Of a DNA stretch of 40,140 bases, positions 1,530-25,051 are shown in pieces. The notes beneath the pieces are model-generated. The model saw only the letters and a list, made by a program, of their open reading frames with translations. It was not told the origin of the DNA and did not search any database. The stretch spans positions 1 through 40,140 of the forward strand of contig DATEVB010000238.1 in assembly GCA_035282865.1 (NCBI GenBank). The letters run 5' to 3'. Every line of letters begins with the position of its first letter. Position 1 is the first letter of the stretch. Position numbers and translations under genes: made by a program. The DNA comes from Acidimicrobiia bacterium. GTDB taxonomy: Bacteria > Actinomycetota > Acidimicrobiia > Spongiisociales > UBA4744.

Positions 1530-2555
1530 ATGCCGGCCAACCTCACGCCCGAATACAAAACGGCTGAGGCTGCGTTCAAACGAGCGAGCGAACCGAACGA
1601 ACGCCTCGAGCTGCTGCGCACCATGCTGCGGGCACTGCCGAAACACAAAGGCACAGACCACCTCCAGGCCGACATCAAGACCCGGATCAAAGAGCTGACC
1701 GACGAGCTGGCCGGCCCCAAGAAAGGTGGAGCCCGGCGCGGTCCCCCGACGTCCTTCCGGCCCGAAGGCGCCGCCCAGCTGGCCCTTATCGGACCACCCA
1801 ACTCCGGCAAGTCGACGTTGCATGCGCGGCTGACCGGATCCCACGCCCAGACCGGGGAATACCCTTTCACTACCCTATTGGCCCAACCGGGGATGATGGC
1901 CTATCAGGACGTCGCCTTTCAGCTCATCGATCTTCCCCCCATCTCTCACGAGCACCCCATCCCCTGGATCGGCAACGCCCTACAACCCGCCGATGCCTGC
2001 CTGCTGGTGGTCGACCTCTGTGAGGCAGGTTGCATGGAGCGGGCCGTGGCGGTACGAGACCTGCTTGCCGAACGCAAGGTTGTTCTGTCGGCAGGATGGC
2101 CGGGCGACACCGGCACCCCCCGATTGCCGATCGATCACGAAGGGGATCCGTTCACCATCCGACTTCCGACGCTCCTGATCATCAACAAGACCGACCGGAT
2201 CGGTGACCCGAAAACGGAGATCGACATCTTCGAAGATCTCACAGAGTTGCACTTCCCGACCCTCGCCGTTTCGGCCACCGCCGGGGATGGCCTGGACGAG
2301 ATCGGCCCCTGGCTCTTTGCGAGACTGGGGATCGTCCGCGTGTATACCAAAGCGCCGGGCAAAGCTCCCGACCTGGACCGGCCCTACACCATCCGTCGGG
2401 ATGGAACCGTCCACGACGTTGCCGAGCTGGTCCATCGCGAACTCGCAGAATCGTTCAAGTTCGCCCGTCTATGGAGAGCAGGCACCTTCGAGGGCCAGCA
2501 CGTTGGCAGCGAGCACGACTTGCAGGACGGCGACGTGGTGGAGCTGCACAGCTGA
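1530..2555 (+). CDS. DRG/Obg-like GTPase with C-terminal TGS domain
   Basis: G1 is GPPNSGKST, G2 is YPFTT and G4 is NKTD. The C-terminal TGS-like region is IVRVYTKAPGK...GDVVEL. The G3 motif reads DLPP instead of DxPG (see findings). Confidence 0.85.
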   Translation: MPANLTPEYKTAEAAFKRASEPNERLELLRTMLRALPKHKGTDHLQADIKTRIKELTDELAGPKKGGARRGPPTSFRPEGAAQLALIGPPNSGKSTLHARLTGSHAQTGEYPFTTLLAQPGMMAYQDVAFQLIDLPPISHEHPIPWIGNALQPADACLLVVDLCEAGCMERAVAVRDLLAERKVVLSAGWPGDTGTPRLPIDHEGDPFTIRLPTLLIINKTDRIGDPKTEIDIFEDLTELHFPTLAVSATAGDGLDEIGPWLFARLGIVRVYTKAPGKAPDLDRPYTIRRDGTVHDVAELVHRELAESFKFARLWRAGTFEGQHVGSEHDLQDGDVVELHS

Positions 2556-2709: not shown

Positions 2710-3057
2710 CTAGGCGGCTGTGAACACCATCCCGTAGTACTTGTCGTAGGCGCCCTCTCGCACCACCTTGACCTCACCCTGAACCGCCATCCCCATCTTG
2801 GGGTTGTCGACCTCGAGCTGCCCGGTGATCCGCAGGCCGTTCTCCAGTTCGACGATGCCCAGTCCCAACGTCGGCACCTCGAACTCGGCCGGCAGGTTGT
2901 AGACCTTGGTGAAGGTCAGCAGCTTGCCCTTCTTCGGAAGCGGCACGATATCGAACTCGAAAAAGCCGTTCTGCCGGCACTCCTTGCAGACCATCCGGAA
3001 GGGATAGTGCAGATGACCGCATTTGCGACACTTATAGGCGTAGATCTCGCGAGCCAT
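2710..3057 (-). CDS. DUF35 family Zn-ribbon / OB-fold protein (thiolase-associated)
   Basis: Zinc ribbon CRKCGHLHYPFRMVCKEC is followed by an OB-fold-like C-terminus. Its ATG shares one nt with the stop of the upstream thiolase-like gene (TGATG). Confidence 0.85.
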   Translation of the reverse strand: MAREIYAYKCRKCGHLHYPFRMVCKECRQNGFFEFDIVPLPKKGKLLTFTKVYNLPAEFEVPTLGLGIVELENGLRITGQLEVDNPKMGMAVQGEVKVVREGAYDKYYGMVFTAA

Positions 3058-4232
3058 CAGTCCTCCCTCACAAAGGTCAGGCAGACAACGTTGTTGCCAA
3101 AACCGCCGAAATTGCAGGTAAAGCCGACCCGGGCTCCGTTGACCTGGCGGTCGCCGGCCTCGCCTCTGAGCTGCGTCACGATTTCGTGAGCCTGGGCAAC
3201 TCCGGTGGCACCGACCGGATGACCCTTCCCCTTCAACCCACCGGAGGGATTGATCGGCAGGGACCCGTCCAACGCGGTTTGCCCTTTCTCGAGGGCAATG
3301 TGTCCTTCGCCCTTCGGGAAGAACCCAACCTCTTCACTCTCGACGATCTCGAGGATGGTGAAGGCATCGTGCAGCTCCGCTACGTCTACATCCTGCGGTG
3401 TCAACCCGGCCATCTCCAACGACTTGGCAGCCGCCCGACGCACGGCCAGCAGATCGGTCGGTTCTTCCCGCTCGTGTACGGCGTGGGTATCGGTCGCCTG
3501 ACCGATACCGGCCAGGCGTATGGGTGGCCGATCGATGGTCTTGGCGACGTCTTCGGATACCAGGATGACCGCCGCTCCCCCGTCCGACACCGGACAAGCG
3601 TCGAAGAACCGCAGCGGTTCCGCCACATACGGGTTGTTCGTCATCGCTTCCGGCGAATCGAGGATGCCCTCGAGCGTGATCGGCTGGTGCAGGTGGGCGA
3701 ACTCGTTCAGCATGGCGTTGTTCTGGTTCTTGACCGCCACCATGGCCAGATGCCGTTCGGTCACACCGTACTTCTCCATGTACAGGCGAGTGAACATCGC
3801 CGCGTGGGACGGCAAGGTGACCCCGTATATGTACTCGGCCAGTGGATGGGTGAGGGTGGCGATGAAGTCGGTCGCCTCGAGGTTGTTGACCTCCCGCATG
3901 CGTTCGGCACCGCTGACCAGCACCACGTCGTGCAGACCTGATGCCACTGCCGCGAACCCGGCCTTGATGGCCGAAGCTCCCGAAGCCGGACCATTCTCGA
4001 CAACCGCCGCTCCGGCCGGAGTGAGACTCAGGCTGTCAACCACCGCACTGGCCAGCGCCGTCTGGTGGTTGATCCTCGCACTGCCCATGTTGGCCACGTA
4101 CAGGTGATCCACATCGGTGATCCCGGCGTCGTTCAGCGCCATCATCGATGGGTAGGCAGCGATCTCGGAGACCGGATACTCGAGCCGCGTGAAGCTGGTG
4201 ATGCCTATCCCGACTACGTATACGTTACGCAT
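3057..4232 (-). CDS. thiolase-like protein (SCP2/archaeal-thiolase type), apparently lacking catalytic cysteines
   Basis: MRNVYVVGIGITSF..., DACPVSDGGAA, GGLKGKGHPVGATG and NFGGFG are typical of SCP2/archaeal thiolases. The start was refined to ATG 4232, downstream of a GAGGGGAGA SD. The nucleophile motif reads GPASGAS and the HDCF motif reads HDAF. Confidence 0.85.
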   Translation of the reverse strand: MRNVYVVGIGITSFTRLEYPVSEIAAYPSMMALNDAGITDVDHLYVANMGSARINHQTALASAVVDSLSLTPAGAAVVENGPASGASAIKAGFAAVASGLHDVVLVSGAERMREVNNLEATDFIATLTHPLAEYIYGVTLPSHAAMFTRLYMEKYGVTERHLAMVAVKNQNNAMLNEFAHLHQPITLEGILDSPEAMTNNPYVAEPLRFFDACPVSDGGAAVILVSEDVAKTIDRPPIRLAGIGQATDTHAVHEREEPTDLLAVRRAAAKSLEMAGLTPQDVDVAELHDAFTILEIVESEEVGFFPKGEGHIALEKGQTALDGSLPINPSGGLKGKGHPVGATGVAQAHEIVTQLRGEAGDRQVNGARVGFTCNFGGFGNNVVCLTFVRED

Positions 4233-4983
4233 GATCCGTCTCCCCTCGGAGAGCATTACGCTGCGCAATGAGGGCGGTCGCCGTCGGGTCGTACATGGAC
4301 CTGGTGGCCGCCAACAAGTCGGCCGGGGGCGTGGGTGGATCCGACGGTGGCAGGATCTTGGCTTCCGCTTTGGCAAGAAGCTCCGGCGGAACCGGGCGCC
4401 GCCCCACGACCAGGGTCGAGCGGGCTCGATCGAAGAGCTCCTTGGTCAGCGACCACGACGGCACGCCGCCCAGCTCATGGGGCGTTTCGAACCGTTTGTC
4501 GAGCTGATATTCGATCATCCAGCGACGGAATCCGATCGGTGATTCGGCCACGACCAACACCTCTTTGTGCCCGAGGATGTCGATGTGGTATTCCATCTTG
4601 GCGGCGAAAGCGTGCGCGCCCACCCGCAAGCCGCGCCGGAGGGCGATGGTGTGCAATGACATACCAAGATCCCCCGACACCTGCCGCCCGTTGACGACGG
4701 CCGCCAACTCTCCTTCGATCTGCGCGATCAGCACGTACTCGTCTTGAGCCCGGTACCGGTAGTGAGCCAGCAACTCGGAGTAGATGCGGGCGCATACGAC
4801 GTCGTAGTAGTCCCGCTCGACGTGGAGGAGCGGCTCGAGATACGGCAGGACGTCGGGAATCTCGTCCCGATCGATCTGCCGGATCACCATGTGCTCGCCG
4901 CTCGCCAGCGTCATGTACTTCGCTTCGAACGGCTTCAAAGGGTGGTCTTCTGGACGGAGAATCCTCTCCAGGTCAACAGCCAT
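4225..4983 (-). CDS. hypothetical protein (possible GNAT-like acyltransferase fold)
   Basis: It sits in-operon between the Mo-hydroxylase and thiolase-like genes. Start ATG 4983 has GGAG about 10 nt upstream. The segment LHTIALRRGLRVGAHAF loosely resembles the GNAT R/Q-x-x-G-x-G/A motif. I recognised no firm family. Confidence 0.6.
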   Translation of the reverse strand: MAVDLERILRPEDHPLKPFEAKYMTLASGEHMVIRQIDRDEIPDVLPYLEPLLHVERDYYDVVCARIYSELLAHYRYRAQDEYVLIAQIEGELAAVVNGRQVSGDLGMSLHTIALRRGLRVGAHAFAAKMEYHIDILGHKEVLVVAESPIGFRRWMIEYQLDKRFETPHELGGVPSWSLTKELFDRARSTLVVGRRPVPPELLAKAEAKILPPSDPPTPPADLLAATRSMYDPTATALIAQRNALRGETDHA

Positions 4984-4996
4984 TGCGGTACATCTC

Positions 4997-7378
4997 CTAC
5001 TCCTCACTCTTCTCTCTCAACACCGATAGCGCCACCTTCTCGGCGGTGATCGGCATCGATGTGATGCGGACACCCAGGGCGTCCTTGATGGCATTACCGA
5101 TCATCGGCGCCGCCGGGATCATGGTGTGTTCTCCCACTCCTCTGGCCCCGAAGGGCCCGTCCGGCTGGGCGATCTCGATGATGATCGGAATCGTCTCTTC
5201 TGGTATGTCGTGGGCCGTCGGGATCTTGTAGTCCGTGAAGTTGGGGTTCAGCAACCGCCCGTCCTCCCCGAACCGCATGTCCTCGTAGAGGACCGTGGCC
5301 AGACCCTGGACGATCCCGCCTGTGATCTGCCCTTCGATGAGACTGGGGTTGATGGCCTTGCCGACGTCGACAGCCAGCGCCACCTTCTTGACCTTCATCC
5401 GGCCGGTTTCCCGGTCGACCTCGAGCACCACCCCGGCTGCCCCCACCGTGTAGTGGACGTTGGGATGACCGCCCTGACTGGTCTCGGGGTCACTGCGGGT
5501 CGACGTGAACTCGGGCATGAACTTGCCGGAACCCACGATCGGTCCACCCTTGAAGGTGCCGTCCGTGTCTTCGAGCCCGTCGATGACAAAATCTTTCAAC
5601 GGCAGCTTGAAGTCGGGATCGGTGCTGGACCGGACGCTCTCATCCTCGAGATAGAGCGACTCCTCTTCGTAGCCGTGCACCCGATGCACAACGTCGAAGA
5701 TCTTCTCGCGGGCCTCGACCGCGGCTGCATGCACGGCATTACCGCAGCTCCACGTAACATGCGAGGCAACCGTCTGCCACTCATAGGGGTTGCGGTCGGT
5801 GTCGGGGGTCTCGACCCGGATCTTGGTAGGAGGCACCGCCAACACCTCCCCGGCAATCTGGGCCATGGCGGTCATATACCCCTGGCCGAGCTCCATGCCC
5901 GAGACGGAGATGTTCATGCTGCCGTCCTCATTGAACTTGAGGAATGACGCCGACGAGGCGTTGGGCGGCATGGCCGGCGCCTTCCAGAACACGGCGAAGC
6001 CCTTACCGATCGCTTTGTTGGGGTCGTCCGACGTCTCTTCCTTCCCCCACTCGATGGCATCTGCGGTTCGATCGATGGCCTCGATCAACCCGGATGGATT
6101 CATCTCCGCTCCGTAGGCGAGGATATCGCCCTCAACAATGGCGTTCTTGCGCCGGAACGCGACCGGATCCATCCCGATGGCCTCGGCGACCCGATCGACA
6201 TGTGATTCGAGCCCGAACACGAACTCCGAATACCCGAAGCCGCGGTACGGACCACCGGGCGGCAGGTTGGTGTAGATGCATTTGGAGTCGATCCATACGT
6301 TGGGGACACGATACGGGCCGGTGGCCGACAACCCGGCGGCGTTGACCACATTGGCTCCATATTCGACATAGGCGCCGGCGTCCCAGTTGAGGATGTGCCT
6401 GATGGCAGTGATCGTGCCGTCGTTCTTGACACCCATCTTCAGGTGAGCGACCAAGCCCTGCCGCTGGTAGGTGTTGTAGAACTCCTGCTCCCTGGTAAAC
6501 CGGATCTTGACGGGATGGCCCTTGGCCGCGGTAGCGAGGGCCGCGCCCATGATCTCCATCGAGACGCCGGCTTTCCCACCGAATCCTCCACCCACGTACG
6601 GGGTGATGACCCGGACGTCCTTGTGAGACAGGCCAAGCGGAGCGAGCGCTTCTGCAAAGAGATGCCGCTGCGTGTACGGTGACTGCGACGCCGACCACAT
6701 GGTCAGACGGCCGGATTGGTCGTAGAGCCCGACGATCACATGCGGTTCGATCGCACAGTGTGCATACCTGGGCACCCTGTACTCGCCCTCCAACACCAGG
6801 TCGGCTTGGGCGAAGCCCCGCTCGACGTCACCCTTGCGAGTCTTGCGCCAGTGGGCGATGTTCGTGTTTTCGTGCGGGTAGAACCACGGGACGTGCGCGT
6901 AGTCGCCCAGATCCGGATGGATCAGCTCGGAATCCGGTTTGAGGGCTTCGAGCGGATCAAAGATCGGGGGCAGCTCCTCATAGGTGACTTCGACGAGCTT
7001 GGCGGCCCGTTTGGCCACCTTGGGGTCGCGAGCGATGACCGCCGCCACTTGTTCACCGACGAAGCGGACCCGGTCCTGGGCAAAAACGTACCGGTCCTTC
7101 ATGTACAGCCCGAACTTGAACGGGAAATCCTTCCCGGTGACGACCTTGGTCACACCGGGGACGGCTGCCGCCGCCGAGGTGTCGATGGCCTTGATCAAAG
7201 CGTTGGCGAAGGGGCTTTCGACGATCTCCGCGTACAAGAGGTCGGGACCGAAATCGAGGTCGTCCACGTACCGGGCCGCACCCGAGACCTTCTCCAATCC
7301 GTCCACTCTCACGGCCGCCTTGCCAACGAAATCGAGGCCGCGGGTGCTTTCTCGCTCGAACGGTCTGAGCGTCGTCAT
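4997..7378 (-). CDS. xanthine dehydrogenase family molybdopterin-binding large subunit
   Basis: It contains VGGGFGGKAG, a C-terminal GARGVGE (catalytic Glu context) and aldehyde-oxidase/XDH a/b hammerhead-like N-terminal VDGLEKVSGAARYVDD. Start ATG 7378 overlaps the 2Fe-2S subunit stop (ATGA). Confidence 0.9.
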   Translation of the reverse strand: MTTLRPFERESTRGLDFVGKAAVRVDGLEKVSGAARYVDDLDFGPDLLYAEIVESPFANALIKAIDTSAAAAVPGVTKVVTGKDFPFKFGLYMKDRYVFAQDRVRFVGEQVAAVIARDPKVAKRAAKLVEVTYEELPPIFDPLEALKPDSELIHPDLGDYAHVPWFYPHENTNIAHWRKTRKGDVERGFAQADLVLEGEYRVPRYAHCAIEPHVIVGLYDQSGRLTMWSASQSPYTQRHLFAEALAPLGLSHKDVRVITPYVGGGFGGKAGVSMEIMGAALATAAKGHPVKIRFTREQEFYNTYQRQGLVAHLKMGVKNDGTITAIRHILNWDAGAYVEYGANVVNAAGLSATGPYRVPNVWIDSKCIYTNLPPGGPYRGFGYSEFVFGLESHVDRVAEAIGMDPVAFRRKNAIVEGDILAYGAEMNPSGLIEAIDRTADAIEWGKEETSDDPNKAIGKGFAVFWKAPAMPPNASSASFLKFNEDGSMNISVSGMELGQGYMTAMAQIAGEVLAVPPTKIRVETPDTDRNPYEWQTVASHVTWSCGNAVHAAAVEAREKIFDVVHRVHGYEEESLYLEDESVRSSTDPDFKLPLKDFVIDGLEDTDGTFKGGPIVGSGKFMPEFTSTRSDPETSQGGHPNVHYTVGAAGVVLEVDRETGRMKVKKVALAVDVGKAINPSLIEGQITGGIVQGLATVLYEDMRFGEDGRLLNPNFTDYKIPTAHDIPEETIPIIIEIAQPDGPFGARGVGEHTMIPAAPMIGNAIKDALGVRITSMPITAEKVALSVLREKSEE

Positions 7379-7851
7379 CCCGTTGCCTCCCCTCCGGCAT
7401 GGGCTGCCGCCAGGACGGCATCGATGATCGGATCGTATCCGGTACACCGGCAAAGGTTGCCGCCGATCGCCTCCTGGACGTCTTCTCGGGTTGGGCGGGG
7501 ATTCTCCTCCAGGAGTTCAGCCGCCGCCAGTACGATTCCGGGCGCACAAAAGCCGCACTGGAATGAGTTCATATCGACGAAGAACTGCTGGAGTTCGGTC
7601 AGCCCCTCGTCGTCCAGCCCTTCAATGGTGACCACCTCGTGGCCGTCGGCCTCCACCGAAAGGACCAGGCAGCTCCGCACCGTGTGGCCGTCGAGCAGCA
7701 CCGTGCAACTCCCGCAATCCCCCCGCTCGCATCCGATCTTCGGGCTCTTCACGCCGACCTTGGACCGGAGCGTTTCGAGGAGCACATCGTTGGGTTCGAC
7801 CGACAGCAACCACGGTTCGCCGTTGACCGTGACCGAGACATCCATTCGCAT
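7375..7851 (-). CDS. (2Fe-2S)-binding small subunit of the Mo hydroxylase
   Basis: Cysteine motifs CERGDCGSCTV, CGFCAPG and CRCTGY are typical of the XDH/CoxS family. Confidence 0.9.
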   Translation of the reverse strand: MRMDVSVTVNGEPWLLSVEPNDVLLETLRSKVGVKSPKIGCERGDCGSCTVLLDGHTVRSCLVLSVEADGHEVVTIEGLDDEGLTELQQFFVDMNSFQCGFCAPGIVLAAAELLEENPRPTREDVQEAIGGNLCRCTGYDPIIDAVLAAAHAGGEATG

Positions 7852-7859
7852 CCGTCCCC

Positions 7860-8750
7860 CTACATCAAGTTGGTTCCGTAGGAAGGCCCGTTGCCTTCCA
7901 GCCGTTCCACGGCAGCCTTCAAGCCCCGCTGCAACATCACTTCCGACATTCGAAGCCGGTATTCCTTCGATGCCCTGATATCGGTAATGGGCGAGATCTC
8001 CTCGGACACCAGTGCCATGGCCCGGGCGACCAGCACCGGATCGAGCGCCTTACCCTCCAGAAGCGCTTCGACGCGCCGCGCCCGCACGGGCGTGTCGGCC
8101 ACCGCCCCGAAGGCAACCCGGAACCGATGATCGGGTGGCGCCAGAATGGCAACGCTGGCCTGAGCGAGGTCCTCACCTTCGTAGCGACTGAGCCGGACAA
8201 AAGCGGCGCCGTGGCCGCCGGGCGGTACCGGCACCACCACTTTGGTCACAATCTCACCCCGACCGAGCGCCGTCATGCGTGGTCCGAGGAACCACTCGTC
8301 GATGGGAATCCGGCGGGTACCAGCAACTCCGACGGTATGGACCACCGCTCCGTACACGAGGAGTACCGGCCCGGCATCACACGAGGGCACGGCCGAACAG
8401 ATGTTCCCGACCATGGTGGCTCGATTGCGGATTCCGGTGGATGCCACAGTCGCCGCCATCTCGGAGATCAACGGCAGCCGGGCGGCGACCGGCCCCGAGT
8501 TGAGGAGATGAGTAAAGGTGACCAGCGAACCCATCGAAAGGGCGTCTCCTTCGTCGACGATCTCGCCGAGACCCTCGATCCGCTTGATATCGACGACCAG
8601 GTCGGGGGCGACCGCTTCGTCCCGCAACCAGGCAATGAGGTCGGTGCCACCAGCCAGCACCCGGACGTCACCGGCGTGCCCGATGAGGATCTCCAGTGCT
8701 TCGTCCAGCGTCTCCGGCCGCTCGTAATCGAACACCTGGGCGATCGTCAT
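7860..8750 (-). CDS. FAD-binding medium subunit of the Mo hydroxylase (CoxM/XdhB-like)
   Basis: It contains LAGGTDL and has a CO-dehydrogenase flavoprotein-like C-terminus. Start ATG 8750 is preceded by AAGGAGG. Confidence 0.9.
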   Translation of the reverse strand: MTIAQVFDYERPETLDEALEILIGHAGDVRVLAGGTDLIAWLRDEAVAPDLVVDIKRIEGLGEIVDEGDALSMGSLVTFTHLLNSGPVAARLPLISEMAATVASTGIRNRATMVGNICSAVPSCDAGPVLLVYGAVVHTVGVAGTRRIPIDEWFLGPRMTALGRGEIVTKVVVPVPPGGHGAAFVRLSRYEGEDLAQASVAILAPPDHRFRVAFGAVADTPVRARRVEALLEGKALDPVLVARAMALVSEEISPITDIRASKEYRLRMSEVMLQRGLKAAVERLEGNGPSYGTNLM

Positions 8751-8829
8751 ATCACCCTCCTTGTTGTCCGTTTTGTCAAACCTAGGCGATTCATGGGAGA
8801 CCGGGCGGCACACCGCCCGCCCGGGGCTG

Positions 8830-10242
8830 TCAAGAGTTCCCTACTCCCCCGGCCAGCGCTTTGACCGCGTCGATGAAACACTCCATCGGGGCCTCCACCA
8901 GGCCCGCCCCGACCATCCCTATGCCGGGTTCCTTTCCCGCCACGCCGGTGTTGATCTGAGGACGAACCCCGGTGCGTACCACCAACATCGCGTCGATCCC
9001 GGTCGGTGTGCCCCGGAACTCCAGGATGGGTATCTGGTATGAGGGATGCTCGGCCATAGTTATCTCGTACATGGCCTGGGTCCGTTGGACGGCGCCGGCC
9101 GCGGTACCACCGACGAATCCGACGATGGCCGGCGAGGCGGCCATGGCGAACCCACCCAGGCCGATCGTCTCGGTGATGGCCGAGTCTCCGATGTCCGGGT
9201 TGGCGTCGTCGGCGGTGAACGACCCGAGGAAGAGACCGTCCACGATCGGGGCCGGAGCCGTGAACCACCGGTCGCCGGTCCCCGACAGCCGGATGCCGAA
9301 CTCGGTTCCGTTGCGGGCCATGGTCGTGACCAGGCTGGAATTGGCCACCCCGGACGCCGCATCGACGACCAGCTTCCCGGCTGCCATCACCAGGTTGAGC
9401 ATGAAGTGGTCGTTCGAGTCGATGAAGGAGTACACGGCCGAACGGTCGGCAACCGGTGCGGCGTCGCTCTCCACCAGCGCGGCGCCGATGGTCCGGAGCA
9501 GCAGGGAGGTTCCCGCTCGATTGCGATTGTGCCCGTCGTCTCCCATCTGCAGAGCCTGGGCGATGAGAGAGCGCAGATCAACGGGGCCGGTCCGTCGGAG
9601 GGCGTCTCCCACCACCGGTCCCAGCACCCGTTCCATCCACCGGAGCCGCTCGATGACCTCAGGGGAATAGGCCCCGTACCGAAGGACTTTGCCGAGTCCT
9701 TCATTGAGGGTCGAGTACGCCACTCCCCCGCTTGCGGGGTCTTGTACGACCAGCACCGGCATGGAAGGGCTGATGACGCCGGCCATCGGGCCGACCGCTT
9801 GATGATGGTGGCAGGGAGAGAATTCAACCTCACCGGCTTGGAGCTTGGTTGCCGCCTCCGCGGCAGTCGCCGCGAAACCTTCGTAGAGCATGGCGCCCAT
9901 CAGGGCCCCCCGCATGGGTCCGCTGGCATCCGCCCAGGAAAGCGGCGGCCCGGCATGCAGGAACATGCGCTCGGTCAATCCGGGGATCGCCGTGCCGGCC
10001 GGGACCACATCCACCAGGTGGGGACGAACCTCGAGCAATCGGGCGACGGCGAGCTGGTTGGCTTCCGCCACCGCCGGCGTTGCCGCCAGCTTGGCGAGGG
10101 CTGCTTCGGTTCCGCCGGCCGGCGGGCTCCACTCGGTCCTCCGCACCTCGACGCTCTGCGCCTCGAGCGCACCGGCCAGCACTTCGACCCCGACCGTCAC
10201 GATCACCGGCTCGGTGTCGAGGAGGCGTTGGAGCTCACTCAT
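8830..10242 (-). CDS. DUF1116 family protein (YlbE/AllG-like)
   Basis: From memory, it aligns along most of its length to E. coli YlbE (LHAGPP, FSPCHHHQAVGPMAG, NEGLGKVLRYGAY, DSAITETIGLGG, INTGVAGKE.GIG). Start ATG 10242 overlaps the FdrA stop (ATGA). Confidence 0.85.
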   Translation of the reverse strand: MSELQRLLDTEPVIVTVGVEVLAGALEAQSVEVRRTEWSPPAGGTEAALAKLAATPAVAEANQLAVARLLEVRPHLVDVVPAGTAIPGLTERMFLHAGPPLSWADASGPMRGALMGAMLYEGFAATAAEAATKLQAGEVEFSPCHHHQAVGPMAGVISPSMPVLVVQDPASGGVAYSTLNEGLGKVLRYGAYSPEVIERLRWMERVLGPVVGDALRRTGPVDLRSLIAQALQMGDDGHNRNRAGTSLLLRTIGAALVESDAAPVADRSAVYSFIDSNDHFMLNLVMAAGKLVVDAASGVANSSLVTTMARNGTEFGIRLSGTGDRWFTAPAPIVDGLFLGSFTADDANPDIGDSAITETIGLGGFAMAASPAIVGFVGGTAAGAVQRTQAMYEITMAEHPSYQIPILEFRGTPTGIDAMLVVRTGVRPQINTGVAGKEPGIGMVGAGLVEAPMECFIDAVKALAGGVGNS

Positions 10243-11669
10243 AGGGCACCCCCTTCGACCAACGAGATTGCGTGGTTGGCTGCCGCAGCGTTGGACAGCC
10301 ACACAGATGCGCCGGCCTCGTTGAGGAGACGGGCCTGCCGATCACGATCCTGGGGATCACCCCTGGTGCCACACAGCGAAACCACCACCGCGGCTCCCTC
10401 GGCGATGGCCAGGGCGATCACCGGTGCCAGCTCAGAGGCCGGATCGGGATGGGCCCCGTGCCCGAGGACCACATCGAGCAGGACGACACCGATCTGCGGA
10501 TCATGAGCTGCAGCTTCCAGACGCTGCAACCTGAGCCGCTGGTCGATCATCGGATGGGCCCGGCCACGGGTGTATTCGTCCTCCCCGTAGTCGATGACCG
10601 TGTGACCGCCAGCCTGTTCGCGCTGAGCGATCGTCCCGAGGGAACCGGCCGCCAAGCGAGCAGCCTCGCTACTGAGGCTGCCACCCGAGAACAAGCCCCT
10701 GAGCATCCCGGGCCGATGGTCGTCCGTCGCGGCCGGCCAGGAGGCGTAGACGGGTGGCACCTTGCCCAGCAGATCCAGGGCTTGACGCACGGCTCCCTCC
10801 AGGGTGACTCCCTCTTCTCCGAGGAAGGCCAGCACGGTCGGTGTCGTGCATTCCTCGGTGGCCGCCCGCACCCGGGCGGCCACCTCGGGGGCAGGCGGTT
10901 TCGAGACCACAATCAGCACTTCGGTGCTGGGATCTGCATCGAGGGCGGCCAACCCACGCAACGTGGAAGAACCACCCACTTCGATCGACAGATCGTGGCT
11001 GCCGGTGCCCAACGCGTTACGAACTCCGACGCCGGCATCGTCAAGCAAGGAACAGAGTTGCTGGATACCGGTGCCGGCTGCACCAACGATGCCAACGGGA
11101 CCCGGTTGCACCACGTTGGCAAAGCCCAGGCCGACTCCGTTGACGATGGCCGTGCCGCAATCGGGTCCCATGACGAGCAGACCCAACCGGCCGGCGGCCT
11201 GTTTGAGCATCACCTCCTGAGCGCTCGGCACGTTGTCGCTGAACACCATCACGTCGAGCCCGTGCTGCAACGCGTCCATTGCCTCGATGAACGCATACTC
11301 GCCGGGAACCGATATCAACGCCAGAGTGGCTCCGGCGGCCGCCGATCCGACCACATGAGCAGGTGGAGCCGCCAGCATCCCGGAGTCGCGGGTGGTCCTG
11401 GCCGCCAGGGCCGCCTCGAGGACCTGTCGAGCATGATCGACCGCTTGCTCGTCGGCGGCACGCACCGCGACGATGAGGTCGTTGGGTCCGGCCTCGCCGA
11501 TCGACTCCACCTCGAATCCCATGCCGGCCAGCAACTCACGATTGAGGTCGGTCGCCATCGCCACCAAGGCCTCTTCTACCCCTTGGGCTTGCTGCAGCGA
11601 CCGGCTCACCTGCATCAGCCGCACGGAATCGTGGTAGGTGCCGCGGCGAACCTCAACGCTATCGATCAT
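10239..11669 (-). CDS. fdrA: FdrA family protein (succinyl-CoA-synthetase-alpha-like; AllF-like)
   Basis: MIDSVEVRRGTYHDSVRLMQVSR, LALISVPGEYA, VMVFSDNV, LLVMGPDCGT, VSKPP and GRAHPMID mirror E. coli FdrA. The ATG overlaps the upstream DUF2877 stop (ATGA). Confidence 0.85.
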   Translation of the reverse strand: MIDSVEVRRGTYHDSVRLMQVSRSLQQAQGVEEALVAMATDLNRELLAGMGFEVESIGEAGPNDLIVAVRAADEQAVDHARQVLEAALAARTTRDSGMLAAPPAHVVGSAAAGATLALISVPGEYAFIEAMDALQHGLDVMVFSDNVPSAQEVMLKQAAGRLGLLVMGPDCGTAIVNGVGLGFANVVQPGPVGIVGAAGTGIQQLCSLLDDAGVGVRNALGTGSHDLSIEVGGSSTLRGLAALDADPSTEVLIVVSKPPAPEVAARVRAATEECTTPTVLAFLGEEGVTLEGAVRQALDLLGKVPPVYASWPAATDDHRPGMLRGLFSGGSLSSEAARLAAGSLGTIAQREQAGGHTVIDYGEDEYTRGRAHPMIDQRLRLQRLEAAAHDPQIGVVLLDVVLGHGAHPDPASELAPVIALAIAEGAAVVVSLCGTRGDPQDRDRQARLLNEAGASVWLSNAAAANHAISLVEGGAL

Positions 11670-12505
11670 GCATTGCTCCCTTCAACAAGGAAATCGGCAG
11701 CCAACAGAATCCCGCAGGCCGTTGCTACCCCGGAGGTGTTCCCCATCATGTACAGACCGCCGACAGCCTCCTCCAGATCGCCTCTCCCGGTCAGGGCCTG
11801 GAGGAACGCCGCCACCGGATCGGCCACCTCGCCCGCCACGGCATGTCGCAGCAGCGCCGCCGACAAGGCAGTCGTGCGAAAAGGCGCCTCCATCAGGACG
11901 ATCGAAGCGACCTCGGCCACCATCCCGCCTGCCCCCACAGCACCTACCGCCGGACCCAGCAACCGCAAGCCGGACAGCATTCCGACCAGCACATCGTCCC
12001 CTTCCGGAGTGAGCCCTGCACCCCTCCCGAGCAGGGCACACATGGCGTGACGGACGGCGGCGGGATCGTTCCTCTTCAGCGACTGACCCAGGCCTCCATC
12101 GTCGGGAAATACGAATCGCGGCCGGGCATCCGCACATCTAGCGGCCACATCCTTCCGGGACACCGATCCCAGCGTTGGTCGCGGATCCCACCAGCGGACG
12201 ACCCTGACCTTTACGCTCCCTACCTCCAACCCGCCGTCTCCGACCACACAGCGGTCTCCGGATTGCGATCGGGCCGCATCGGCCGGCTCTGCCACGGTGA
12301 CGCCGTTGGGCAAACGCACCGCCTCACGCCCGGAGAGCACCAGCACATGCCCGCCCGCCTGCAGCCAAGCGGCGTTGCCCGAAGCACCCAGCAAGACCCC
12401 GGGTTTGCGGGGACCCTCCAGGAGATAACGCACCCCGCGACTAGCCGCCGCCGCCAACGACGTCGGGGCGGTCGCAATGCCCGTCGGGTGCGGCTTGGCC
12501 GGCAT
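11666..12505 (-). CDS. DUF2877 family protein (YlbF/AllH-like)
   Basis: The GAGLTPEGDDVLVGMLSGL motif is typical of DUF2877. The length (279 aa) is similar to YlbF. The start was set to ATG 12505, 10 nt after the amidohydrolase stop. Confidence 0.7.
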   Translation of the reverse strand: MPAKPHPTGIATAPTSLAAAASRGVRYLLEGPRKPGVLLGASGNAAWLQAGGHVLVLSGREAVRLPNGVTVAEPADAARSQSGDRCVVGDGGLEVGSVKVRVVRWWDPRPTLGSVSRKDVAARCADARPRFVFPDDGGLGQSLKRNDPAAVRHAMCALLGRGAGLTPEGDDVLVGMLSGLRLLGPAVGAVGAGGMVAEVASIVLMEAPFRTTALSAALLRHAVAGEVADPVAAFLQALTGRGDLEEAVGGLYMMGNTSGVATACGILLAADFLVEGSNA

Positions 12506-12515
12506 CCGTCCAGTC

Positions 12516-13616
12516 TCAGCCGAGGTCGACGATGGCTGCCACCGGGCCCCCTCCGGAAGGTCCCTGATGGATGGCCGCCACCGAGACGAACACGGCCGCA
12601 TCGTCGACGGCCGCGGCAACCACTCCCCCGACGGCACCCTTGATATGCCGATGGTGGTGCACATCGGAATCGTCGAGCGCTACCTGCCGGCGGCCGCGCA
12701 GTTTGGCGGTCGGATCCGCCTCACATTTCACGAACACGTTGACCAACCGGCCATCGAGGTCTGCCGGCCTCGCTCGATCGGGGAGGTCGAGGCCCGCCGA
12801 GCGGATCGCCTCGTAGACCCCTTCAAAATCGAGCGCATCCTTCATGACGCTGTGACCTATCCGGTACCGGCCTCCCGCGCCGCGTACGTTCCCGACGACA
12901 ACCGTTTGCGCCTGGTTCAGTTCGACACCCGACGAGCAGGAGGCCACCGAGGAATAGAGGGAGAGATCGTGGCCGATTTGATCTTCCGTCGGAATGATGT
13001 CGATTTCACCCAGGGCATAGGCGATGCCGAGCCCGGAAGTCCCGTTGGAGATGTTCATCGACTCGAGCGGCTCCTCGGTCACTACGGAATGGCCCCGCGA
13101 TTTGGCATCGTTGATAGTGTCCATCGTCAGCAGCGGCGTTTTGGTCTGCACATAGTGGACATCCGCCGGATCTTCGATGCCGGCTTCTCTCATGGCCCGC
13201 TTGACTCCCTCTGCCACCTTTTCGACCATGGCGGGCCGGCCGATGTCTTCAGGAAGAATCACCTCACTCATGGCGTAGCCAACCGCCAACCGTGGCTCAT
13301 TAGAGGGGTTGGCGTCGTCGGCCACCCGGGCAAACACCGTTGCATGTGGGGTGAGGATGCCGTCGGTTCCGCCCGACCAAACCATCGGAATCTCCTTGAC
13401 TTCCTCGAGGGGCCGGGTCCCCAGCTCCATGAGGACGTCACGGAAGGCGCGATCGGCGAGAATCCTGGTGAAGTCGTTGACGCCGCCGTTCCCTTCGGTC
13501 TTCCCGATAACGGCGATCACCTCATCGGCGCCGAACGCCCCCTGATCGATCAGCGACTTCATCCCCGACGCATCGGTGACACTCTCCAGGACGACCTTGC
13601 GTACTTCGATGGCCAT
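12516..13616 (-). CDS. ring-opening amidohydrolase of the barbiturase / cyanuric acid amidohydrolase (AtzD/TrzD) family
   Basis: 366 aa. It contains MAIEVRKV...[54 protein letters not shown] and [17 protein letters not shown]. The threefold Ser/Lys repeat pattern is typical of the family. ATG 13616 has GGGAGAG upstream. Confidence 0.85.
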
Positions 13617-13769: not shown

Positions 13770-14207
13770 ATGGACACCTTTCTTCGAGCAGCCATCGACG
13801 AGGCAACGGCCGGATTGTCGGAGGGAGGCATCCCCATCGGCTCGGTGTTGGTGATCGACGGCGAGATAAAGGGGAGAGGTCACAACCGCCGGGTGCAACG
13901 CGGCAGCGCCATCCTCCACGCCGAGATGGACTGCCTCGAGAACGCCGGGCGGTTGGGGGCGGCCGACTACCGGCGGGCCGTGCTCTACTCCACGCTGTCC
14001 CCCTGTGACATGTGCAGCGGTGCCATCCTGCTCTACCGGATCCCGCGGGTGGTTGTGGCAGAAAACCGAACCTTCCGGGGTCCCGAAGAACACCTCCGCT
14101 CCCGGGGGGTTGAGATCGAGATCGTCGATGACCCGATCTGCATCAAGCTGATGGAGGACTTCATCGCCGCCCGACCCGAGCTGTGGGACGAGGATATCGG
14201 CGAGTAG
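13770..14207 (+). CDS. cytosine deaminase, yeast Fcy1-type (CMP/dCMP zinc-deaminase fold)
   Basis: HAEMDCLEN and [12 protein letters not shown] zinc motifs are present. GGIPIGSVL...GRGHNRR and the C-terminal [10 protein letters not shown] closely parallel S. cerevisiae Fcy1 as I recall it (PQDWFEDIGE). Confidence 0.85.
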
Positions 14208-23881: not shown

Positions 23882-24988
23882 GTGCCGATACGTTCCCGAC
23901 CCGTTGACCTGGACGCGACACGGCGCACGGTCGCTGCCAACGACCTGATCGCCACCGCTTCCGCCTATCTCACGTCCGATATTGCACTCCGTTTGCCGTT
24001 CGAGATTCTCGTGCCCTTCAAGGCGCTCCTGTTGCGGTTCTTCTCGACCGGGCCGTGGACGGACCATGATTCCCAGAACCTGAGCGATCTCGTGACACGG
24101 TACGTCACCCGGGGATGGTGGGAGCACGACCTGGGCGGAGGCTTGACACTGGCCTATGGCACTCGAGACGGGCGATTCGAGTTGTGGGCCGGTGGTGCGG
24201 GAGCCGCAGCTCCCTCGATCTTCGACCGAGTATTCGACGGACCGGTGGTACCCGAGGCAACGCCGCACCCTCGCAAAGTCAAGTTCGCAACCGGCGGCCT
24301 CCCGGCCGCCGGAATCTGGCACCGACGCAGCGATCCGGGCAAGCCGGCCGATACGCGGGTCGAGCGATTGTTCGCCGAACCGGACATCACCGACGTCATG
24401 GTGGCCGGTGACTTCGTCACCATCGGCATCGGAGCCCGGTCGTCATGGGAGAAACGATTGGAGCCATTGCTGGCTCTGGTGACCGAACTCTTTGCTGATC
24501 CCGAAGCCGCTCACCAGCGGCCGGAACGGACTCGCCAGGATCTGATGCAAGAAGCAGGCCGGGCCGTCAACCCTTCCCGACCCGAAGAGCTCCACCTGCT
24601 CGACCCCGACGACGAAGGTGACCGGACACAGCTTCTGGAAGCCATCGACGCCGACGACCCACGAGTCCGGCGGATTGCCGTGGCTGTGCTGCTCGAGTCA
24701 CGTGACGCCGATACCCGTCAACGTGCCGTCACCCGAGGCATGGCCGACCCTTCCCGGCTGGTGCGACGCACGGCGGTCGACGCCGCCGCCGACACGGAGG
24801 ACGAGCGGTTCCGATCCTTGTTCGAGCATCTGCTCGCCGACGACGACGCTTGGATCCGCTGGAAAGCGATTCGCTCGCTCGGGGACCTGGGCCTGGGCAA
24901 CAGCCGTTCCCTGGTCGAACCATTGACCGACGATCCCGATTTCCAGGTTCGGTTCGAGATAGCCAAAGTGCTGCGCGAAGCTGGTTAG
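23882..24988 (+). CDS. Nfu/NifU N-terminal-like domain plus HEAT-repeat protein (CvfC-like architecture)
   Basis: The central segment KVKFATGG...ITDVMVAGDFVTIGI...SWEKRLEPLL resembles the Nfu_N scaffold domain. C-terminal HEAT-like repeats are present (DPRVRRIAVAVL, DPSRLVRRTAV, DAWIRWKAIRSLG, DPDFQVRFEI). The start is uncertain: GTG 23882 is the first in-frame start clear of the RR gene, and it has no obvious SD. Confidence 0.55.
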   Translation: MPIRSRPVDLDATRRTVAANDLIATASAYLTSDIALRLPFEILVPFKALLLRFFSTGPWTDHDSQNLSDLVTRYVTRGWWEHDLGGGLTLAYGTRDGRFELWAGGAGAAAPSIFDRVFDGPVVPEATPHPRKVKFATGGLPAAGIWHRRSDPGKPADTRVERLFAEPDITDVMVAGDFVTIGIGARSSWEKRLEPLLALVTELFADPEAAHQRPERTRQDLMQEAGRAVNPSRPEELHLLDPDDEGDRTQLLEAIDADDPRVRRIAVAVLLESRDADTRQRAVTRGMADPSRLVRRTAVDAAADTEDERFRSLFEHLLADDDAWIRWKAIRSLGDLGLGNSRSLVEPLTDDPDFQVRFEIAKVLREAG

Positions 24989-25051
24989 AGCGCATGCGTT
25001 GCAGAGTCTGAAGCTCCCGGCCCCCTCACCACCTGATTAGCCTCCGGACCC

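What the first reader, a model, noticed from the sequence alone, without database searches (positions are those of the whole stretch)
4997..8750. Three-subunit Mo hydroxylase as a candidate uracil/thymine dehydrogenase
Seen in sequence:
- The FAD subunit contains AGGTDL.
- The 2Fe-2S subunit contains CGSC, CGFCAPG and CRCTGY.
- The Mo subunit (793 aa) contains GGGFGGK and a C-terminal GVGE, the context of the catalytic glutamate in hydroxylating XDH-family enzymes.
- It lacks the CODH-type active-site loop, as far as I can see by eye.

Context:
- It sits immediately downstream of the amidohydrolase/AllFGH-like block and opposite a cytosine deaminase.

Inference:
- It hydroxylates C6 of uracil/thymine to give (5-methyl)barbiturate.
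- To my knowledge, gene-level assignment of uracil dehydrogenase is sparse, so a clean genomic candidate is useful.
Basis: partly seen in the sequence, partly recalled or inferred. Interest (0 to 1): 0.6.

Follow-up and report, generated by a model that had tools for sequence, protein, structure and literature searches.

The report
Candidate uracil dehydrogenase, molybdenum type
Three adjacent genes encode a molybdenum enzyme that sits in one operon with a true barbiturase, so it is the best available gene candidate for the enzyme that oxidises uracil to barbiturate, an activity known since the 1950s for which I found no assigned gene.

Summary

The genes lie inside a tightly packed operon. 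Its first gene is about 69% identical over its full length to the crystallised Rhodococcus barbiturase. The operon is divergent from a yeast-type cytosine deaminase.

The Mo subunit belongs to a tight clade that is only 47% identical or less to the next full-length relatives.
- It fails every NCBIfam equivalog cut-off tested (XDH, CODH, 4-HBCR, PaoC and others).
- It lacks the two purine-binding residues of xanthine dehydrogenases (E802 and R880 are both Ala).
- It lacks the CODH loop.

In a 301-genome sample of the class, all 10 barbiturase-bearing genomes carry this clade, and 290 genomes have neither. Elsewhere in the phylum, 12 of 12 barbiturase genomes carry a second, unrelated Mo hydroxylase lineage instead.

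Best reading (about 0.7): uracil (perhaps also thymine) dehydrogenase producing barbiturate. The evidence is contextual; no activity has been measured.

Earlier notes of this scan reached the same pathway reading on other DNA. I found no paper assigning a gene to this activity.

The parts
7860..8750 (-). FAD-binding medium subunit (296 aa), CoxM/QorM type
   Evidence: Pfam FAD_binding_5 + CO_deh_flav_C. The AGGTDL motif is present. The best solved relatives are the CODH, Kdh and Qor medium chains; the 4-HBCR beta subunit is not among the hits. A strong SD site (AAGGAGG) precedes the ATG at 8750.
7375..7851 (-). Small subunit with two [2Fe-2S] clusters (158 aa)
   Evidence: Pfam Fer2 + Fer2_2. 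It has eight Cys in CGSC, CGFCAPG and CRCTGY contexts. The best solved relative is the quinoline 2-oxidoreductase small subunit. By eye the N-terminus (MRMDVSV) shows no Tat-like signal.
4997..7378 (-). Molybdopterin-binding large subunit (793 aa), 'group A' clade
   Evidence: Pfam Ald_Xan_dh_C + MoCoBD_1 + MoCoBD_2. The start ATG overlaps the FeS stop as ATGA. The signature GGGFGGK-A, PYRGFGYSEF, FWKAPAM, GVGEH is identical in every clade member compared. It falls below all NCBIfam equivalog cut-offs.
12516..13616 (-). Barbiturase orthologue; first gene of the operon (context)
   Evidence: 519 bits and about 69% identity over the full length to crystallised barbiturase 5HWE, against 314 bits or less to cyanuric acid hydrolases.
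8830..12664 (-). AllH-, AllF- and AllG-like genes between barbiturase and the FAD subunit (context). The exact starts of AllH and AllG are uncertain.
   Evidence: Pfam AllH, Ligase_CoA/CoA_binding and AllG. FdrA subfamily score is 426.8 against a cut-off of 433. Gene order is conserved in 29 loci.
13770..14207 (+). Fcy1-type cytosine deaminase, divergent from the operon (context)
   Evidence: 155 bits over the full length to yeast cytosine deaminase structures, against 75 bits or less to TadA. Pfam dCMP_cyt_deam_1. It is conserved at this position in the same-genus loci.
2710..4983 (-). Operon tail: unannotated 252-aa protein, thiolase-like protein and DUF35 protein (context)
   Evidence: Thiolase domains. 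The 252-aa ORF has no Pfam or NCBIfam hit. The trio stays attached to the Mo genes even where the operon is split from barbiturase.

Best explanation
The three genes encode a cytoplasmic heterotrimeric (probably dimer-of-trimers) molybdenum hydroxylase of the xanthine dehydrogenase family that acts as a uracil dehydrogenase, possibly uracil/thymine (activity EC 1.17.99.4).

Inferred mechanism, by analogy with the family:
- The Mo-OH of the pterin cofactor, activated by the conserved C-terminal glutamate (GVGE), attacks C6 of uracil.
- Hydride passes to Mo=S, and the oxygen comes from water, so no O2 is needed.
- Two electrons travel through the two [2Fe-2S] clusters to FAD on the CoxM-type subunit, and on to an acceptor that is still unknown.
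- The product, barbiturate, is opened by the barbiturase encoded at the head of the same operon.
- The resulting ureidomalonate is then probably split by the AllFGH-like proteins.
- Cytosine can enter through the divergent cytosine deaminase.

Shown here: gene structure, cofactor motifs, barbiturase orthology, synteny, co-occurrence, and the lack of XDH and CODH specificity residues. Inferred: the substrate, the product, the acceptor, and everything downstream of barbiturase.
For: 1. All domains and cofactor motifs are complete. The Q767, R912, F914 and E1261 equivalents are kept.

2. The genes share an operon with a barbiturase about 69% identical to the crystallised enzyme. Junctions are overlapping or tight. 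A divergent Fcy1-type cytosine deaminase sits upstream.

3. Eighty barbiturase loci from named MAGs were examined; 51 are informative and 29 are too short to judge.
- 29 have this clade adjacent.
- 11 have a second Mo hydroxylase lineage adjacent.
- 3 end just after the FAD and FeS genes.
- 8 have none within 9 kb.
- In 3 of those 8, and in one locus too short to judge, the genome carries the clade elsewhere; in the 3 it lies 25-63 kb away on the same contig.

4. In a 301-genome sample of the class, the clade is in 11 genomes and barbiturase in 10, with an overlap of 10.

5. In a 201-genome sample of the phylum, all 12 other barbiturase genomes carry the second lineage, where both genes lie on one contig within 5-35 kb. 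A Mo hydroxylase partner therefore appears obligatory, and it has been recruited twice.

6. The wider clade containing these genes has local support of 99 in the FastTree run. Sister clusters at 42-47% identity show related contexts.
- Two keep AllF/G plus a cyclase-family hydrolase beside the Mo genes, one of them with AllH as well.
- A third has AllH nearby.
- One also has a malonate-decarboxylase-alpha-like gene and a CN-hydrolase.
- One also has an NCS1 nucleobase permease.

7. Helper genes are present in the genome in trans: an XdhC-family chaperone next to a MocA-like cytidylyltransferase.

8. From established biochemistry, the only described biological source of barbiturate is oxidation of uracil, and the classical enzyme uses artificial acceptors. 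That fits a CoxM-type flavoprotein.
Against: - No activity has been measured; all evidence for the substrate is guilt by association.
- Related genomes are not independent. The 10 co-occurring genomes come from 5 families of one order.
- The Mo genes are linked even more tightly to the unknown/thiolase-like/DUF35 trio than to barbiturase, and the role of that trio is unknown.
- Orthologues about 76% identical also sit next to a PF04199 cyclase-family hydrolase instead of barbiturase. The chemical identity of the ring in those loci is not anchored by a characterised enzyme.
- One sister cluster (P0125) has no such context.
- No nucleobase transporter lies in the window.
- The genome also has a dihydropyrimidinase-type gene above its equivalog cut-off, so a reductive route may coexist.
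- The classical actinomycete enzyme is probably the other lineage, so this clade is not orthologous to whatever was assayed in Rhodococcus or Nocardia.
Confidence: 0.7

Rival explanations
1. It hydroxylates a different N-heterocycle: another pyrimidine, a pyrimidinone, or a cyclic ureide. The oxidised product then enters the same ring-opening and carbamoyl-releasing lower pathway. Uracil would not be the physiological substrate.
For: - Orthologues at 76% identity pair with a PF04199 cyclase-family hydrolase rather than barbiturase.
- Sister clusters sit in other heterocycle clusters with amidohydrolases and NCS1 permeases.
- Specificity cannot be read from the sequence.
Against: - Here the partner is a close orthologue of the characterised barbiturase. 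From memory of Soong et al. 2002, that enzyme was reported to be specific for barbiturate.
- A cytosine deaminase is the divergent neighbour.
- The active-site signature is identical in barbiturase-context and cyclase-context members, which argues for a single substrate.
Confidence: 0.15
2. It works with the attached unknown/thiolase-like/DUF35 trio on a carboxylic acid, aldehyde or CoA-thioester. Examples are oxidation of malonate semialdehyde, or a 4-hydroxybenzoyl-CoA-reductase-like reaction. On this reading its link to barbiturase is only a pathway neighbourhood.
For: - The best solved relative of the large subunit is 4-HBCR alpha (332 bits).
- The Mo genes stay with the trio when they are separated from barbiturase.
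- Thiolase/DUF35 pairs are usual in CoA-thioester pathways.
Against: - 4-HBCR equivalog scores are far below cut-off: alpha 495 against 995, beta 104 against 405.
- The flavoprotein is CoxM-like, and 4-HBCR beta is not among its hits.
- Loci exist with the Mo genes plus cyclase, with or without AllF/G, and no trio.
- Nothing in the operon would supply malonate semialdehyde or an aromatic CoA-thioester.
Confidence: 0.07
3. It is an ordinary xanthine/hypoxanthine dehydrogenase of purine catabolism, as automatic annotation suggests.
For: - The best NCBIfam hits carry XdhA names.
- Public records call orthologues 'xanthine dehydrogenase family protein' or 'CO/xanthine dehydrogenase'.
Against: - All XDH equivalog scores are far below cut-off: 516 against 780, 488 against 916, 437 against 784, 296 against 850.
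- The residues equivalent to bovine E802 and R880 are both Ala. An XdhB that passes its equivalog cut-off, and the genome's own paralogue L099, keep both Glu and Arg.
- No purine genes are nearby.
Confidence: 0.03

Closest known systems
Uracil/thymine dehydrogenase activity (EC 1.17.99.4) of the oxidative pyrimidine pathway, with barbiturase and ureidomalonase, described in Rhodococcus erythropolis JCM 3132 and earlier in Nocardia, Corynebacterium and Mycobacterium
   Same: - It has the predicted reaction slot directly upstream of a barbiturase orthologue.
- It is acceptor-type rather than oxygenase-type in its redox chemistry (inferred from the family).
   Different: - I found no gene or sequence published for the classical enzyme, so orthology cannot be tested.
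- Other Actinomycetota, including a cultured Embleya, pair barbiturase with a different Mo hydroxylase lineage. The classical enzyme is more likely that one.
- Here the step after barbiturase appears to be AllFGH-like rather than a urea-releasing ureidomalonase (inference).
Bacterial three-subunit xanthine dehydrogenases (E. coli XdhABC, B. subtilis PucCDE, XdhAB of Rhodobacter type)
   Same: - Same three-domain set, two [2Fe-2S] clusters, FAD and pterin-Mo site.
- Equivalents of Q767, R912, F914 and E1261 are kept.
   Different: - E802 and R880 are replaced by Ala, and the F1009 region is replaced by FWKAPAM.
- Equivalog scores are far below cut-off.
- It forms a separate clade in both trees.
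4-hydroxybenzoyl-CoA reductase (Thauera, PDB 1RM6), the best-scoring solved large subunit
   Same: It is the best-scoring solved relative of the large subunit (332 bits).
   Different: - TIGR03194 scores 495 against a cut-off of 995, and the beta subunit model 104 against 405.
- The flavoprotein groups with CoxM/QorM, not with the 4-HBCR beta subunit that carries the extra cluster.
- The direction (reductive dehydroxylation) and the CoA-thioester substrate do not fit the context.
Form II CoxL-like enzymes, NCBIfam NF040766 ('aerobic CO dehydrogenase large subunit', group 5)
   Same: They occupy the same genomic slot beside barbiturase and AllFGH in Acidimicrobiales, Nitriliruptoria, Embleya and 12 of 12 barbiturase genomes of the phylum sample.
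   Different: - Only 27-33% identical to the window's enzyme.
- Different loop (PYRGAGRPQG, with F914 replaced by Ala).
- They lie inside the CoxL superclade.
- This is a functional analogue, not an orthologue.

Membership tests
Xanthine dehydrogenase / Mo-hydroxylase family (three-subunit bacterial type) | Domain set: FAD_binding_5 + CO_deh_flav_C; Fer2 + Fer2_2; Ald_Xan_dh_C + MoCoBD_1 + MoCoBD_2 | tested here: met
   All seven Pfam domains are above their gathering scores.
Xanthine dehydrogenase / Mo-hydroxylase family (three-subunit bacterial type) | Eight Cys ligands for two [2Fe-2S] clusters, and Mo-site residues (Gln, GGGFGGK, Arg of the xYRG loop, C-terminal Glu) | tested here: met
   Read directly from the translations and from alignment to an XdhB that passes its equivalog cut-off. 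The bovine residue numbering is from memory. It was checked against the spacing in that XdhB reference: +78 from the Glu is Arg, and +112 is Phe.
Uracil/thymine dehydrogenase (EC 1.17.99.4) | Catalyses uracil + H2O + acceptor -> barbiturate + reduced acceptor | not testable with these tools
   Needs an enzyme assay.
Uracil/thymine dehydrogenase (EC 1.17.99.4) | Encoded and inherited together with barbiturase, the next enzyme of the pathway | tested here: met
   - Same operon here.
- Adjacent in 29 of 51 informative loci.
- Found in 10 of 10 barbiturase genomes of the class sample.
Uracil/thymine dehydrogenase (EC 1.17.99.4) | Sequence identity to the purified classical enzyme | not tested
   No sequence of the classical enzyme was found in the papers I could search.
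Xanthine/hypoxanthine dehydrogenase | Substrate-binding Glu (bovine E802) and Arg (R880), and an equivalog-level HMM score | tested here: not met
   Both positions are Ala. Scores against cut-offs are 516/780, 488/916, 437/784 and 296/850.
Form I aerobic CO dehydrogenase | AYRCSFR active-site loop with the Cu-binding Cys, and the TIGR02416 score | tested here: not met
   The loop reads PYRGFGYSEF. TIGR02416 scores 321 against a cut-off of 991.
4-hydroxybenzoyl-CoA reductase | Equivalog-level scores for the alpha and beta subunits (the beta subunit carries an extra Fe-S cluster) | tested here: not met
   Scores are 495 against 995 and 104 against 405. The flavoprotein's solved relatives are CoxM, KdhM and QorM.
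Periplasmic aldehyde oxidoreductase PaoABC | PaoC/PaoA equivalog scores | tested here: not met
   PaoC scores 304 against 1180, and PaoA 121 against 322.

The most novel reading that the evidence does not exclude
The uracil-to-barbiturate step has been invented at least twice within the Mo hydroxylase family.
- The window's clade ('group A') is an oxygen-independent uracil dehydrogenase. It opens a pathway in which the ureido group is recovered as carbamoyl phosphate, and hence as ATP through the genome's carbamate kinase, instead of being lost as urea.
- The second lineage ('group B') currently passes the NCBIfam model NF040766, so it would be named 'aerobic carbon-monoxide dehydrogenase large subunit'. 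It would be the classical actinomycete uracil dehydrogenase, and its present name would be wrong in its barbiturase-linked members.
Probability: 0.4. Interest if true: 0.75.

Novelty: new variant of a known kind. Interest (0 to 1): 0.62.

Why it matters
Oxidative pyrimidine degradation (uracil to barbiturate to ureidomalonate) has been a textbook pathway for some seventy years. To my knowledge, and in the papers I could search, its first enzyme has no gene. A clean, widely conserved candidate makes the question directly testable by expression and assay.

It would also let genome annotation recognise the pathway. At present these genes are labelled 'xanthine dehydrogenase family' or 'CO dehydrogenase'.

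Mo hydroxylases take their oxygen from water. The assignment would therefore imply that this so-called oxidative route can run without O2 in the many uncultured bacteria that carry related clusters.

The side observation that a 'CO dehydrogenase group 5' model captures the barbiturase-linked second lineage matters for surveys that count coxL-like genes as evidence of CO oxidation.

Tried and rejected
- **Named references for the tree.** I tried to fetch reference plasmids pHCG3 (CoxL) and pAO1 (Ndh/Kdh), but the accessions are not in the plasmid collection. The trees therefore use E. coli XdhA, XdhD and PaoC, plus CoxL and XdhB sequences that pass their equivalog cut-offs. No nicotinate, quinoline, isoquinoline, caffeine or 4-HBCR sequences could be included. 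Their absence is covered only by the PDB and NCBIfam scores.
- **Unfinished tree search.** The careful IQ-TREE search did not finish in the time allowed. The quick IQ-TREE tree and a FastTree tree are reported instead.
- **Papers not held.** The 2017 barbiturase structure paper and the 1976 Vogels review are not in the library. Properties of the classical enzymes are therefore from memory.
- **OTC-family gene next to one orthologue (L012).** I first read it as a replacement for AllFGH. It passes the ornithine carbamoyltransferase equivalog cut-off (394 against 281), so I dropped it as evidence.
- **79-nt spacer hairpin before the FAD gene.** It folds no better than shuffled sequence (z = 0.08), so it is not treated as a feature.
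- **Plasmid collection.** No orthologue of the Mo subunit is present; the best hit is 36% identical.
- **One contig look-up (L090 barbiturase).** It was not on record.
- **Not attempted.** I ran no structure or complex prediction. The heterotrimer is a textbook assembly, and a fold would not reveal substrate specificity.


Full report
**1. What is there**

The window is a contig of an Acidimicrobiia metagenome-assembled genome (2.63 Mb, 94.6% complete). On the minus strand an operon runs from 13616 to 2710, in this order:
- a barbiturase-family gene (13616-12516)
- AllH-, AllF- and AllG-like genes (to 8830)
- the FAD subunit (8750-7860)
- the [2Fe-2S] subunit (7851-7375)
- the Mo subunit (7378-4997)
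- an unannotated 252-aa ORF (4983-4225)
- a thiolase-like gene (about 4232-3057)
- a DUF35 gene (3057-2710)

The junctions are tight.
- The Mo start overlaps the FeS stop as ATGA.
- The FeS gene starts 8 nt after the FAD stop.
- The FAD gene has an AAGGAGG ribosome-binding site.

A 145-aa gene is divergent from the operon (13770-14207, +). It matches yeast Fcy1 cytosine deaminase over its full length at 155 bits, against 75 bits or less for TadA.

The rest of the window is housekeeping: TypA, Lon, prolyl oligopeptidase and others.

**2. Check of the observation**

All quoted motifs are present: AGGTDL; CGSC, CGFCAPG and CRCTGY; GGGFGGK and GVGE. The Pfam architecture is complete. The lengths of 793, 158 and 296 aa are right.

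The CODH loop is absent. The window reads PYRGFGYSEF where equivalog-grade CoxL reads AYRCSFRVTE. The GVGE glutamate is conserved family-wide and does not discriminate.

**3. What kind of Mo hydroxylase it is**

Against NCBIfam the large subunit is below every equivalog cut-off.

| Model | Score | Cut-off |
|---|---|---|
| XdhA_XDHase | 516 | 780 |
| 4-HBCR alpha | 495 | 995 |
| E. coli-type XdhA | 488 | 916 |
| PucD | 437 | 784 |
| form I CoxL | 321 | 991 |
| XdhB | 296 | 850 |
| PaoC | 304 | 1180 |

Orthologues at 74-93% identity fill the 120 clusters listed in the large protein search. In related genomes the next paralogues drop to about 38%. In the 50%-clustered library the nearest full-length relatives are 47% identical or less.

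I aligned the subunit to an XdhB that passes its equivalog cut-off. The bovine residue numbering is from memory. I checked it against that reference by spacing: the Glu of GGGFGGKE, then Arg at +78 and Phe at +112.

| Bovine position | In this clade |
|---|---|
| Q767, R912, F914, E1261 | kept |
| E802 | Ala |
| R880 | Ala |
| F1009 region | FWKAPAM |

The motifs GGGFGGKA and PYRGFGYSEF are identical in all eight full-length members compared, and FWKAPAM recurs in the members checked for it, whatever their genomic context.

The genome has five other large-subunit loci. One of them (L099) scores 813 against a cut-off of 830 on the selenium-dependent XDH model. It keeps both the Glu and the Arg, so it is the better purine dehydrogenase candidate.

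The flavoprotein's solved relatives are the CODH, Kdh and Qor medium chains. The FeS subunit is closest to the Qor small subunit.

In a quick IQ-TREE tree the clade has SH-aLRT support of 100, sits on a long stem, and lies outside three groups:
- XdhB and the Se-XDH-like paralogue
- E. coli XdhA, XdhD and PaoC
- the CoxL superclade

The FastTree tree places the clade the same way.

**4. The neighbour that anchors the chemistry**

The first gene of the operon scores 519 bits against PDB 5HWE 'Barbiturase', aligned end to end at roughly 69% identity. It scores 314 bits or less against five cyanuric acid hydrolase structures. Barbiturase and cyanuric acid hydrolases do not accept each other's substrates (PMC4051656).

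To my knowledge barbiturate has no described biological source other than oxidation of uracil. A gene for a ring hydroxylase in the same operon is what the pathway lacks.

**5. Comparative genomics**

*Barbiturase loci.* Eighty barbiturase loci (70-92% identical) were fetched from named MAGs, mostly Acidimicrobiia and Nitriliruptoria. They sort as follows.

| Situation | Loci |
|---|---|
| The window's clade ('group A', 60% identity or more) adjacent | 29 |
| A second three-subunit Mo hydroxylase ('group B', 27-33% identical) adjacent | 11 |
| Locus ends just after the FAD and FeS genes | 3 |
| No Mo hydroxylase within 9 kb | 8 |
| Too short to judge | 29 |

I searched four Acidimicrobiia genomes with no adjacent Mo gene: three of the eight 'none' loci and one locus too short to judge.
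- All four carry a group A orthologue at 73-75% identity elsewhere.
- In three of them it lies 25-63 kb away on the same contig.
- In each case it sits with the unknown/thiolase/DUF35 trio.

*Class sample.* In a 301-genome sample of the class, group A is found in 11 genomes, barbiturase in 10, and the overlap is 10. The one genome with group A but no barbiturase has its Mo gene 2.8 kb from a contig end. These genomes span only 5 families of one order, so the count overstates independence.

*Phylum sample.* In a 201-genome sample of the phylum, all 12 barbiturase orthologue genomes other than the window's own carry group B above the NF040766 cut-off. Where both genes lie on one contig they are 5-35 kb apart.

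*Cultured strains.*
- In Embleya sp. NBC_00888, barbiturase and group B lie 8 kb apart.
- In Nonomuraea gerenzanensis, no Mo hydroxylase or AllFGH gene lies within 16 kb of barbiturase.

*What group B is.* Group B scores 1395 bits on NF040766, 'aerobic CO dehydrogenase large subunit, group 5'. It has the form-II loop PYRGAGRPQG and sits inside the CoxL superclade. Two unrelated Mo hydroxylase lineages therefore fill the same slot beside barbiturase.

*Contexts without barbiturase.* Group A orthologues about 76% identical also occur next to a PF04199 cyclase-family hydrolase, with or without AllHFG, instead of barbiturase.

*Sister clusters.* A wider clade containing group A has local support of 99. 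Its members at 42-47% identity show these contexts.
- P0124: FAD-FeS-Mo-AllH-AllF-AllG-cyclase, followed by a CN-hydrolase, a malonate-decarboxylase-alpha-like gene, an MFS transporter, and the unknown and thiolase genes.
- P0126: AllF-AllG-cyclase-FAD-FeS-Mo.
- P0128: an NCS1 nucleobase permease, AllH and DUF35 nearby.
- P0125 and P0127: no AllFGH-type neighbours.

The malonate-related gene fits the expected three-carbon product of an opened pyrimidine ring.

**6. How it most likely works**

Cytosine is deaminated to uracil. The Mo enzyme hydroxylates C6 with oxygen from water and passes two electrons through the two [2Fe-2S] clusters and FAD to an unknown acceptor. Barbiturase opens barbiturate to ureidomalonate.

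The AllFGH-like proteins then probably release carbamoyl phosphate, by analogy with oxalurate cleavage by E. coli AllFGH (PMC11326118).

The genome has three helper genes elsewhere.
- A carbamate kinase above its cut-off lies in an OTC-family/kinase/PLP-enzyme operon.
- An XdhC-family chaperone lies next to a MocA-like gene.

Only the gene content, motifs, orthology and associations are shown. The substrate, product, acceptor and the downstream steps are inferred. Whether thymine is used is open.

**7. Rivals**

- *Another heterocycle substrate (0.15).* It is kept alive by the cyclase-context orthologues and by the varied sister clusters.
- *A role with the thiolase-like trio on aldehydes or CoA-thioesters (0.07).* It rests on the tight linkage and on the 4-HBCR top hit. 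It fails the 4-HBCR tests.
- *Ordinary xanthine dehydrogenase (0.03).* It fails on the residue test and on scores.
- *CO dehydrogenase.* It is excluded by the loop.

**8. Literature and earlier notes**

Six full-text searches found no paper that assigns a gene to uracil/thymine dehydrogenase, or that links a Mo hydroxylase to barbiturase. Subscription journals are largely missing from the library, so this is not proof of absence.

Earlier notes of this scan, which are AI notes and not independent evidence, reached the same pathway reading on this window's neighbouring genes and on several other genomes. I re-derived the parts used here from tool results.

**9. Verdict**

It is a distinct subfamily of a well-known enzyme family, and it is the best candidate in this lineage for an orphan enzyme activity.

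Noticed in passing
L085:16037-18436 (+); also L117 (Embleya) 24738-27086 (-), L136, L137: A second Mo hydroxylase lineage sits beside barbiturase and AllFGH. It passes NCBIfam NF040766, 'aerobic carbon-monoxide dehydrogenase large subunit (group 5)', at 1395 bits, but it has the form-II loop PYRGAGRPQG. All 12 barbiturase genomes of a phylum sample carry it. The CO dehydrogenase name may be wrong for these members.
   Followed up: partly
G000 contig C231, L118:236-3390 (-): The genome's carbamate kinase lies between an OTC-family carbamoyltransferase and a PLP-dependent enzyme. The layout recalls E. coli ygeW-ygeX-yqeA of the reductive uric acid pathway.
   Followed up: partly
G000 contigs C160 (L099), C105 (L097), C136 (L096), C216 (L100): There are five further large-subunit loci in a 2.6-Mb genome.
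- One is a fused FeS-Mo protein close to the selenium-dependent XDH model (813 against a cut-off of 830) that keeps the purine-binding Glu and Arg.
- One has the large subunit split into 497 + 345 aa, like nicotinate dehydrogenase.
- Two are form-II CoxL-like genes.
   Followed up: partly
L139:17339-19945: In a sister cluster (Mo subunit 47% identical), the Mo/AllHFG/cyclase genes are followed by a CN-hydrolase and a malonate-decarboxylase-alpha-like gene (PF16957). This hints that malonamate or malonate is the three-carbon product.
   Followed up: no
L135:9411-14247: A distant AtzD-family gene (about 40% identical to the barbiturase) lies directly beside a group-B-like Mo hydroxylase in another actinobacterial genome. 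This may be a related ring-oxidation and ring-opening pair for a different substrate.
   Followed up: no
L116 (Nonomuraea gerenzanensis, 33 kb around barbiturase): This cultured actinomycete has a 72%-identical barbiturase with no Mo hydroxylase or AllFGH gene within 16 kb on either side. It is listed as a 'plasmid' of 11.85 Mb in PLSDB, so the record is evidently a chromosome.
   Followed up: no
window 8751-8835 (-): The only sizeable spacer in the operon carries a GC hairpin. Its folding energy is no better than that of shuffled sequence (z = 0.08).
   Followed up: yes
window 1530-2555 (+): A 341-aa GTPase carries a C-terminal TGS domain. That architecture is DRG-like and better known from archaea and eukaryotes, yet here it is in a bacterial genome.
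   Followed up: no
L144:4671-14907: Two three-subunit Mo hydroxylases sit in tandem around an NCS1 nucleobase permease and an IclR regulator, with AllH and a Bmp-type nucleoside ABC transporter nearby.
   Followed up: no
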